From a virus: a DNA stretch of 11,307 bases. The position numbers were made by a program, and so were the translations under genes. Under the pieces are notes generated by a model. The model was not told the DNA's origin. It ran no database searches and was given only the letters and a program-made list of their open reading frames with translations. Location: the UHGV virus genome UHGV-0356378; one strand, 5' to 3'. This document shows, piece after piece, positions 10,893 through 11,109 of the stretch (the stretch's first letter is position 1; each line of letters starts with the position of its first letter).

Positions 10893-11093
10893 ATGCAACA
10901 CGAACTACAGCCTGATTCACTGGTTGATTTGAAATTCATCATGGCCGATACTGGCTTCGGTAAAACCTTCATCTACGACCGGATTAAGTCCGGCGACCTG
11001 CCAAAAGCCAAAGTTATCCACGGGCGAGCAAGATGGTTATATCGTGACCATTGTGAATTCAAAAATAAGCTCTTAAGCCGCGCTAATGGGTAA
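10893..11093 (+). CDS. torI: Excisionase / recombination directionality factor of the AlpA/Xis winged-helix family, 66 aa (TorI-like)
   Basis: 66-aa ORF with a GGAG ribosome-binding site. The sequence MQHELQPDSLVDLKFIMADTGFGKTFIYDRIKSGDLPKAKVIHGRARWLYRDHCEFKNKLLSRANG has the AlpA-type helix-turn-helix and wing layout. It sits immediately inside attR, opposite intS, as TorI does in K-12 KplE1. Identity to TorI is from memory. Confidence 0.8.
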   Translation: MQHELQPDSLVDLKFIMADTGFGKTFIYDRIKSGDLPKAKVIHGRARWLYRDHCEFKNKLLSRANG

Positions 11094-11109
11094 AATAGCG
11101 GGTAAAATA
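11088..11109 (+). promoter_or_regulatory. Tandem direct repeat GGGTAAAATA x2 (11088-11097 and 11100-11109, 12-bp period); candidate arm-type integrase or excisionase binding sites at attR
   Basis: Two exact 10-mers overlapping the excisionase stop codon, 58 bp from the attR core, sharing the GGGTAAAA core with the three copies at 504-548 beside attL. Confidence 0.4.

What the first reader, a model, noticed from the sequence alone, without database searches (positions are those of the whole stretch)
11088..11109. Tandem GGGTAAAATA pair overlapping the excisionase stop codon beside attR
Two exact 10-mers with a 12-bp period sit 58 bp from the attR core, in the same orientation as the forward copy at attL. 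Repeated arm sites on the P' arm are what P4/lambda-type intasomes need. Their overlap with the 3' end of the excisionase gene means the recombination site and the gene controlling its directionality are physically interleaved.
Basis: partly seen in the sequence, partly recalled or inferred. Interest (0 to 1): 0.45.

Follow-up and report, generated by a model that had tools for sequence, protein, structure and literature searches.

The report
Known integrase arm sites at KplE1 attR

Summary
GGGTAAAATA sits at 11088-11097 and 11100-11109 (+), with a 12-bp period, and copy 1 contains the TAA stop (11091-11093) of the 66-aa ORF 10893-11093.

The window is the E. coli yfdC-argW...dsdC locus and carries the KplE1 (CPS-53)/HK620/Sf6 recombination module:
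- tRNA-Arg(CCU) argW
- the 16-nt core CTGCAGGGGACACCAT at 373-388 and 11167-11182
- intS, 99% identical to K-12
- torI, which matches PDB 1Z4H

K-12 attR is identical over the pair. The 135-bp attR substrate used for in vitro excision starts 18 bp to its left. The HK620 GenBank record already marks exactly this 23-bp stretch as an attP repeat.

All five exact GGGTAAAA copies in the window lie in the att arms: three just upstream of intS, where the published IntS arm-type P' sites lie, and these two. Across 21 distinct relatives, GGGTAAA-N5-GGGTAAAA is nearly invariant while its flanks drift, and its spacing to the core is fixed.

Best reading: these are the IntS arm-type sites of the P arm, not the P' arm. 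Direct binding data for attR are in papers I could not open.

Novelty: already known. Interest: low.

The parts
11088..11097 (+). Arm-type site copy 1 (P arm of attP / attR), GGGTAAAATA. It contains the torI Gly66 codon and the TAA stop.
   Evidence: GGGTAAA carries 1.96 bits per column across 21 distinct relatives. Annotated as an attP repeat in HK620.
11100..11109 (+). Arm-type site copy 2, GGGTAAAATA, non-coding, 12 bp downstream of copy 1.
   Evidence: G(G/A)GTAAAA carries 1.97 bits per column while the spacer and downstream DNA carry 0.66-0.78.
10893..11093 (+). torI, the 66-aa recombination directionality factor (excisionase) of the module.
   Evidence: Annotated torI in E. coli genomes. 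Full-length match to PDB 1Z4H, E=6.6e-43.
11137..11150 (+). Conserved AATCAATCCCCTGC between the arm sites and the core. It is an IHF-like WATCAA match, and its CCCCTGC is inverted relative to the core GCAGGGG. Its role is inferred.
   Evidence: One-mismatch IHF consensus match. Invariant CAA-CCCCTGC at fixed spacing.
11167..11182 (+). attR core, CTGCAGGGGACACCAT (argW 3' end remnant; pawZ in K-12).
   Evidence: (family D13). The core sequence is quoted in PMC2951348.
313..387 (+). argW tRNA-Arg(CCU), the integration target.
373..388 (+). attL core, CTGCAGGGGACACCAT.
395..482 (+). Five TorI-site cores in attL: GTTCG at 395, GTCCG at 415, GTTCG at 458, GTTCG at 468 and GATCG at 478, in two blocks.
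   Evidence: Matches the I1-I2 and I3-I5 description in PMC2951348. Invariant in the phage alignment.
504..513 (+). Arm-type site P'1, GGGTAAAAAG, overlapping the PintS -10 box TAAAAA (507-512). The -35 box TTGACA lies at 483-488.
   Evidence: PMC2951348 states that P'1 overlaps the -10 box.
515..524 (+). Arm-type site P'2, GGATAAAATA, the weaker copy.
524..533 (-). Arm-type site P'3, GGGTAAAATT on the minus strand.
   Evidence: TTTACCC invariant.
539..548 (-). Arm-type site P'4, GGGTAAAAAT on the minus strand, abutting the intS ATG (549).
   Evidence: TTTTACCCATG invariant.
549..1706 (+). intS, a P4-type heterobivalent tyrosine integrase with an N-terminal arm-DNA-binding domain.
   Evidence: Pfam PF13356, PF22022 and PF00589. 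380/385 identical to K-12 IntS, and residues 1-92 identical.

Best explanation
The tandem pair is the pair of integrase arm-type binding sites on the P arm of the attP/attR site of the KplE1 (CPS-53)/HK620/Sf6 argW recombination module.

Proposed mechanism. IntS is a P4-family heterobivalent tyrosine recombinase. Its N-terminal arm-binding domain docks on (Y)GGGTAAA(A) motifs, two direct copies here and four next to intS in attL. Its C-terminal domain acts on the core CTGCAGGGGACACCAT, which starts 57 nt after the pair ends. A bend in the intervening DNA (probably IHF at AATCAATCCCCTG) would let arm-bound IntS reach a core site. TorI bound to its five GTTCG-type sites on attL then sets the direction towards excision.

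In the circular phage, attP fills the whole 249-bp torI-intS intergenic space. The outermost arm sites therefore touch the torI stop codon on one side and the intS start codon on the other.

Shown here: the identity of the module, the motif distribution, conservation and fixed spacing, and the integrase domain content. Taken from published work: P' sites as IntS arm sites, TorI sites on attL, and the in vitro activity of the 135-bp attR. Inferred: that IntS contacts these two particular copies, and the IHF bend.
For: Module identity:
- tRNA-Arg(CCU) and the 16-nt core duplicated at 373-388 and 11167-11182, the same core quoted for KplE1 in PMC2951348.
- torI and dsdC annotated under the match in E. 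coli genomes; K-12 layout.
- IntS is 99% identical to K-12 IntS, with an identical N-terminal domain. TorI matches PDB 1Z4H.
- IntS carries the Arm-DNA-bind_3 domain.

The pair itself:
- K-12 attR is identical over the pair.
- The in vitro excision substrate attR (135 bp) is primed with CTCTTAAGCCGCGCCAATGG (PMC3509656). This is window 11070-11089 with one mismatch, so the pair lies at the outer edge of a functional attR.
- PMC2951348 says all IntS arm-type P' sites in attL share TAAA and that P'1 overlaps the -10 box. That is exactly where GGGTAAAAAG sits.
- All 5 exact GGGTAAAA in the window are in the arms, against 0.32 expected and 0 of 200 shuffles.
- HK620 record AF335538 annotates TGGGTAAAATAGCGGGTAAAATA as an attP repeat region, together with the two int-proximal repeats.

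Conservation:
- In 26 loci (21 distinct sequences), found through TorI or the torI-to-core DNA rather than through the motif, the two cores carry about 1.96 bits per column. The spacer carries 0.66, downstream DNA 0.78 and upstream coding sequence 1.08.
- The 12-bp period is kept in all 26 loci; the 80-nt distance to TGCAGGG is kept in 25 and is 81 nt in the other.
- The N-terminal 79 residues of the integrase are 86-97% identical in the same phages.
Against: - The papers that footprinted and mutated the attR sites (Panis 2007, J Biol Chem; Panis 2010, Virology) are not in the held library. IntS binding to these two copies is therefore inferred from motif identity with the P' sites, the attR substrate boundaries and conservation, not read from data.
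- The pair alone is only marginally non-random within the window (59 of 1000 shuffles).
- Part of the conservation of copy 1 could come from coding constraint on the last torI codons. Against that, the GGG codon shows no synonymous variants, and residue 65 varies while its third base T is invariant.
Confidence: 0.9

Rival explanations
1. The pair is an excisionase (TorI) binding array, like the tandem X1/X2 Xis sites on the P arm of lambda attR.
For: Direct repeats about one helical turn apart, in the arm that carries the Xis sites in lambda, immediately next to the RDF gene.
Against: - TorI sites are GTTCG/GATCG/GTCCG and are described on attL (PMC2951348 and PMC3509656).
- No such core occurs in 11094-11182 on either strand, whereas five occur in attL at the published layout.
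- The motif is the same as that of the IntS P' sites.
Confidence: 0.03
2. The repeat reflects protein coding: the torI C-terminus plus the small overlapping ORF hkaB (window 11086-11235), whose product would begin MGKIAGKI.
For: HK620, Sf6 and Midgardsormr38 records annotate an ORF starting at this ATG. The ORF is listed in the window.
Against: - The ORF length ranges from 17 to 70 codons across relatives.
- The start codon is CTG in two loci and GTG in one.
- Beyond the repeat only the DNA-conserved blocks are kept.
- In a prophage the ORF runs across the core into host DNA.
- Copy 2 is conserved at the DNA level, with no synonymous-type drift.
Confidence: 0.02
3. The pair is a chance A/T-rich duplication, or a torI 3' signal such as a terminator or stop-codon context, with no role in recombination.
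For: A tandem exact 10-mer at spacing 10-14 appears in 5.9% of shuffled windows. The region is A/T-rich.
Against: - No hairpin or terminator lies at the pair. The only terminator-like sites are upstream of torI.
- The motif is confined to the two att arms.
- It is conserved at fixed period and fixed distance to the core from Escherichia to Pantoea, Edwardsiella and Arsenophonus.
Confidence: 0.02

Closest known systems
KplE1 (CPS-53) prophage recombination module of E. coli K-12 (IntS, TorI, attL, attR; Panis et al. 2007 and 2010)
   Same: Same integration site (argW) and same 16-nt core. IntS is 99% identical and TorI 100% identical. attR is identical across the pair, and attL has the same five TorI sites and the same P' sites overlapping PintS.
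   Different: Only the cargo differs. This island carries P22/HK620-like tailspike and ejection genes and an O-antigen polymerase, in place of the K-12 yfdG-yfdT genes. A few point differences lie outside the motifs.
attP of coliphage HK620 and Shigella phage Sf6 (Lederbergvirus)
   Same: About 98% DNA identity over torI(hkaC)-attP. The identical 23-bp tandem repeat is annotated as 'repeat_region attP' in AF335538.
   Different: In the phages the site is the intact attP between hkaC and int. Here it is split into attL and attR of an integrated, degraded prophage.
Lambda Int arm-type sites (P1, P2 on the P arm; P'1-P'3 on the P' arm)
   Same: A heterobivalent integrase with an N-terminal arm-binding domain. 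Short repeated motifs distinct from the core lie on both arms, and the int-proximal arm is P'. An accessory bending protein acts between arm and core.
   Different: - Different motif and a different number and orientation of sites.
- The RDF sites are on attL (the P' side) rather than on the P arm.
- int has its own promoter inside attL.
- The two P-arm sites are adjacent (12-bp period), whereas in lambda (from my own knowledge) P1 and P2 are well separated by accessory-protein sites.
Satellite phage P4 att site and integrase
   Same: Same integrase family (P4-type, tRNA 3' end target, Arm-DNA-bind_3 domain). The P4 att site also has repeated arm motifs flanking the core; this is from my own knowledge and was not checked here.
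   Different: Different tRNA target (leuX), a different RDF (Vis) and a different arm motif. No sequence comparison was made here.

Membership tests
KplE1/HK620/Sf6 argW recombination module | 16-nt core CTGCAGGGGACACCAT duplicated at the 3' end of argW and at the far end of the element | tested here: met
   373-388 and 11167-11182; tRNA-Arg CCU; core quoted in PMC2951348.
KplE1/HK620/Sf6 argW recombination module | IntS integrase gene adjacent to attL, transcribed away from the core from a promoter inside attL | tested here: met
   intS at 549-1706, 380/385 identical to K-12 IntS. TTGACA at 483-488 and TAAAAA at 507-512, as described in PMC2951348.
KplE1/HK620/Sf6 argW recombination module | TorI RDF gene as the last gene of the element, next to attR | tested here: met
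   10893-11093 is annotated torI and matches PDB 1Z4H.
KplE1/HK620/Sf6 argW recombination module | Five TorI sites (GTTCG/GATCG/GTCCG) in two blocks on attL, none needed on attR | tested here: met
   Cores at 395, 415, 458, 468 and 478; none in 11094-11182. Layout as in PMC2951348.
KplE1/HK620/Sf6 argW recombination module | attR sequence able to support IntS+TorI+IHF excision in vitro | tested here: met
   Tested by sequence only. Window 11070-11205 corresponds to the 135-bp attR PCR substrate of PMC3509656, and K-12 attR differs at four positions, none of them in the pair or the core. Activity itself was not tested.
Arm-type binding sites of a heterobivalent tyrosine integrase | The integrase has a separate N-terminal arm-DNA-binding domain | tested here: met
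   PF13356 Arm-DNA-bind_3, residues 2-86, E=2.1e-25.
Arm-type binding sites of a heterobivalent tyrosine integrase | A short motif, different from the core, repeated on both arms of attP and conserved with fixed spacing | tested here: met
   Six copies, 2 on the P arm and 4 on the P' arm. Conservation and fixed 12-nt and 80-nt spacing.
Arm-type binding sites of a heterobivalent tyrosine integrase | The sites are physically bound by the integrase N-terminal domain and are needed for recombination | not testable with these tools
   This needs footprinting and mutagenesis. The published attR data (Panis 2007 and 2010, Virology) could not be opened.
RDF (Xis/TorI) binding-site array | Carries the RDF recognition motif (for TorI: GTTCG-type core) | tested here: not met
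   No G[TA][TC]CG on either strand in 11094-11182.

The most novel reading that the evidence does not exclude
Copy 1 supplies the torI stop codon in every relative that keeps the pair, and the outermost P' site abuts the intS start codon. IntS occupancy of the P-arm pair might therefore do more than build the intasome. It could feed back on torI, for example as a roadblock to transcription leaving torI. In the excised phage that transcription would run through attP into intS. This would be the reciprocal of the known TorI repression of intS at attL. Nothing here tests it.
Probability: 0.08. Interest if true: 0.35.

Novelty: already known. Interest (0 to 1): 0.08.

Why it matters
It matters little as a discovery. 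It re-identifies from raw sequence a piece of one of the few fully mapped non-lambda intasomes.

Its practical value is for annotation. The signature torI-stop/GGGTAAA-N5-GGGTAAAA-N60-TGCAGGGGACACCA marks the true right end of argW-integrated (pro)phages. These occur in about a quarter of complete E. coli genomes and in many Enterobacterales. Many prophage calls in IMG/VR stop at the torI stop codon and so cut this site off.

Tried and rejected
- I tried to open the two papers that map and mutate the attR sites, by DOI and by PubMed id, and two related J Biol Chem papers by PMC id. None is held. Other papers citing KplE1 gave no attR site detail.
- TorI-site hypothesis: rejected, because the TorI core motif is absent from the attR arm.
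- hkaB small-ORF hypothesis: rejected, because the start codon and length are not conserved.
- Terminator or promoter at the pair: none found.
- The viral-contig scan returned only loci with 100% identical TorI among the 80 kept, so it added no divergence. The genome-contig scan and the phage collection supplied the informative relatives.
- No covariation test between the integrase N-terminal domain and the motif was possible, because neither varies appreciably in the relatives found.

Full report
**The observation.** The sequence at 11080-11109 reads gcgctaatGGGTAAAATAgcGGGTAAAATA. The two exact 10-mers are at 11088-11097 and 11100-11109, with a 12-bp period. The 66-codon ORF 10893-11093 ends with TAA at 11091-11093, inside copy 1. 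The 16-nt direct repeat that marks the element's ends is CTGCAGGGGACACCAT, at 373-388 (the 3' end of a tRNA-Arg(CCU)) and at 11167-11182. The second copy starts 57 nt after the pair ends.

**Is it more than chance?** On its own, barely. A tandem exact 10-mer at spacing 10-14 turns up somewhere in 59 of 1000 dinucleotide-preserving shuffles of the window. The motif's distribution is decisive, however. GGGTAAAA has five exact occurrences in 11.3 kb, against 0.32 expected, and 0 of 200 shuffles reach five. All five are in the two att arms: 504(+), 526(-) and 541(-) just upstream of the integrase start, and 11088(+) and 11100(+). A sixth, weaker copy (GGATAAAATA) is at 515(+).

**What the locus is.** The left flank encodes the end of yfdC, then argW. 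The right flank is dsdC.
- ORF 549-1706 is IntS. It has Pfam Arm-DNA-bind_3, Phage_int_M and Phage_integrase domains. It is 380/385 identical to K-12 IntS, and residues 1-92 are identical.
- ORF 10893-11093 is TorI, a full-length match to PDB 1Z4H, annotated torI in E. coli genomes.
- This is the KplE1 (CPS-53)/HK620/Sf6 argW recombination module, whose core is quoted as the same 16 nt in PMC2951348.
- The cargo differs from K-12. It is a degraded P22/HK620-like podovirus with a head-binding tailspike, three ejection proteins and an O-antigen polymerase. The best match is E. coli FDAARGOS_1248, 100% identical over the 458-bp torI-dsdC query.

**What is published about the module.**
- PMC2951348 states that attL holds five TorI sites (GTTCG, GATCG, GTCCG) in two blocks. 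It also holds IntS arm-type P' sites that all share TAAA, with P'1 overlapping the -10 box of the intS promoter.
- In the window the five TorI cores are at 395, 415, 458, 468 and 478. TTGACA is at 483-488, and TAAAAA at 507-512 lies inside GGGTAAAAAG. The GGGTAAA(A) motif is therefore the IntS arm-type motif.
- PMC3509656 gives the primers of the 135-bp attR that supports in vitro excision with IntS, TorI and IHF. The outer one, CTCTTAAGCCGCGCCAATGG, is window 11070-11089 with one mismatch. The pair is thus the outermost element of a functional attR.
- K-12 attR is identical over the pair.
- The HK620 GenBank record annotates three attP repeat regions. One is TGGGTAAAATAGCGGGTAAAATA, which is window 11087-11109. 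The other two are window 503-524 and 524-549.
- I could not open the two papers that footprint and mutate attR itself. From memory they place IntS arm-type sites and one functional IHF site on attR. I mark that as recollection, not as a result.

**Comparative test.** I collected relatives through the TorI protein or the torI-to-core DNA stretch, not through the motif. They were 6 phage records and 24 species genomes.
- Of the 24 genome loci, 20 keep the pair. The other four have lost, truncated or diverged the torI 3' end (L023, L026, L029, L030).
- With the window, that gives 26 loci analysed and 21 distinct sequences. They come from Escherichia, Klebsiella and Erwinia phages, Enterobacter, Serratia, Citrobacter, Dryocola, Pantoea, Tatumella, Rouxiella, Edwardsiella and Arsenophonus.
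- All of them have G(G/A)GTAAA-N5-(G/A)GTAAAA at the TorI stop.
- Information content is 1.96 bits per column in each core. It is 0.66 in the 5-nt spacer, 0.78 in the 25 nt downstream and 1.08 in the 30 nt of coding sequence upstream.
- The distance from copy 1 to TGCAGGG is 80 nt in 25 loci and 81 nt in one.
- The conserved unit is therefore (Y)GGGTAAA(A).
- TorI residue 65 varies (N, D, A, G, S) while its third base T and the GGG codon stay fixed, which points to a DNA-level constraint on copy 1.
- On the other arm, GGGTAAAAA, TTTACCC and TTTTACCCATG are invariant across the phages. The first 79 residues of their integrases are 86-97% identical.

**Mechanism.** This is inferred from the anatomy, from the published system and from general knowledge of heterobivalent integrases. 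IntS N-terminal domains bind the two P-arm copies and the four P'-arm copies, while the catalytic domains act on the core. The DNA between the pair and the core carries a conserved AATCAATCCCCTGC, which is an IHF-like match with one mismatch and is invariant at fixed spacing. It probably provides the bend. TorI on attL sets directionality. In the circular phage, attP occupies the whole 249 bp between the torI stop and the intS start, which is why the outermost sites touch both genes.

**Rivals.**
- TorI sites: the motif is wrong, and no TorI core occurs in the attR arm.
- Coding for the annotated small ORF hkaB: its start is CTG or GTG in three loci, its length runs from 17 to 70 codons, and only the DNA-conserved blocks persist.
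- Terminator or chance: there is no hairpin at the pair, and the conservation argues against chance.

**Verdict.** This is the P arm, not P'. attL has four copies in two orientations. The functional unit is 7-8 nt. The feature is already known and annotated, and the sequence occurs in 1372 of 5426 complete E. coli genomes. Interest is low.

Noticed in passing
window 10858-10873 (compare 358-373): An exact 16-nt copy of the argW T-arm (TTGCAGGTTCGATTCC) sits 20 nt upstream of the torI ATG, against 0.01 expected by shuffling. (C)AGGTTCGATTCC is kept upstream of torI in many diverged relatives, and occurs twice in Erwinia phage Midgardsormr38. It contains the TorI-site core GTTCG, so it could be a TorI operator at the uncharacterised torI promoter, or a tRNA-derived relic. 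HK620 annotates the stretch as a cII-dependent pI promoter.
   Followed up: partly
window 11137-11150: AATCAATCCCCTGC lies between the arm pair and the core and is nearly invariant, at fixed spacing, in all relatives. It combines an IHF-like WATCAA match with CCCCTGC, the inverted complement of the core GCAGGGG 18 nt away. It may be the functional IHF site plus a core-type half site.
   Followed up: partly
window 1988-10650: The cargo is not that of K-12 CPS-53. It comprises an O-antigen polymerase-like gene (1988-3331), a tailspike with the P22 head-binding domain (3369-5582, minus strand), three P22-type ejection proteins (5747-9873, minus strand) and a truncated DUF2824 gene. This is a different degraded podovirus that shares the same int/att/torI module.
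   Followed up: partly
window 3335-3367: A perfect 16-nt inverted repeat (ATGCCAGCCCCGAGAT / ATCTCGGGGCTGGCAT, 1-nt loop) lies between the convergent genes ending at 3331 and 3369. It is probably a bidirectional terminator.
   Followed up: no
window 10774-10792 and 10827-10842: Two terminator-like hairpins with T-runs lie just upstream of torI. This is consistent with transcription from the rest of the prophage being stopped before it reaches the excisionase gene.
   Followed up: no
IMG/VR loci such as L034, L035 and L038 (length 1701, TorI match 1501-1698): 34 of the 80 kept viral contigs (length 1701) end exactly at the torI stop codon. These prophage boundary calls cut through arm-site copy 1 and omit the rest of attR.
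   Followed up: no
L030 (Erwinia tracheiphila), L023, L026: L030 has torI truncated after about residue 37 and joined directly to TTCGATGTATGCAGGGGACACCAT, a deletion that removed the P arm. L023 and L026 have TorI-like genes without the pair.
   Followed up: no
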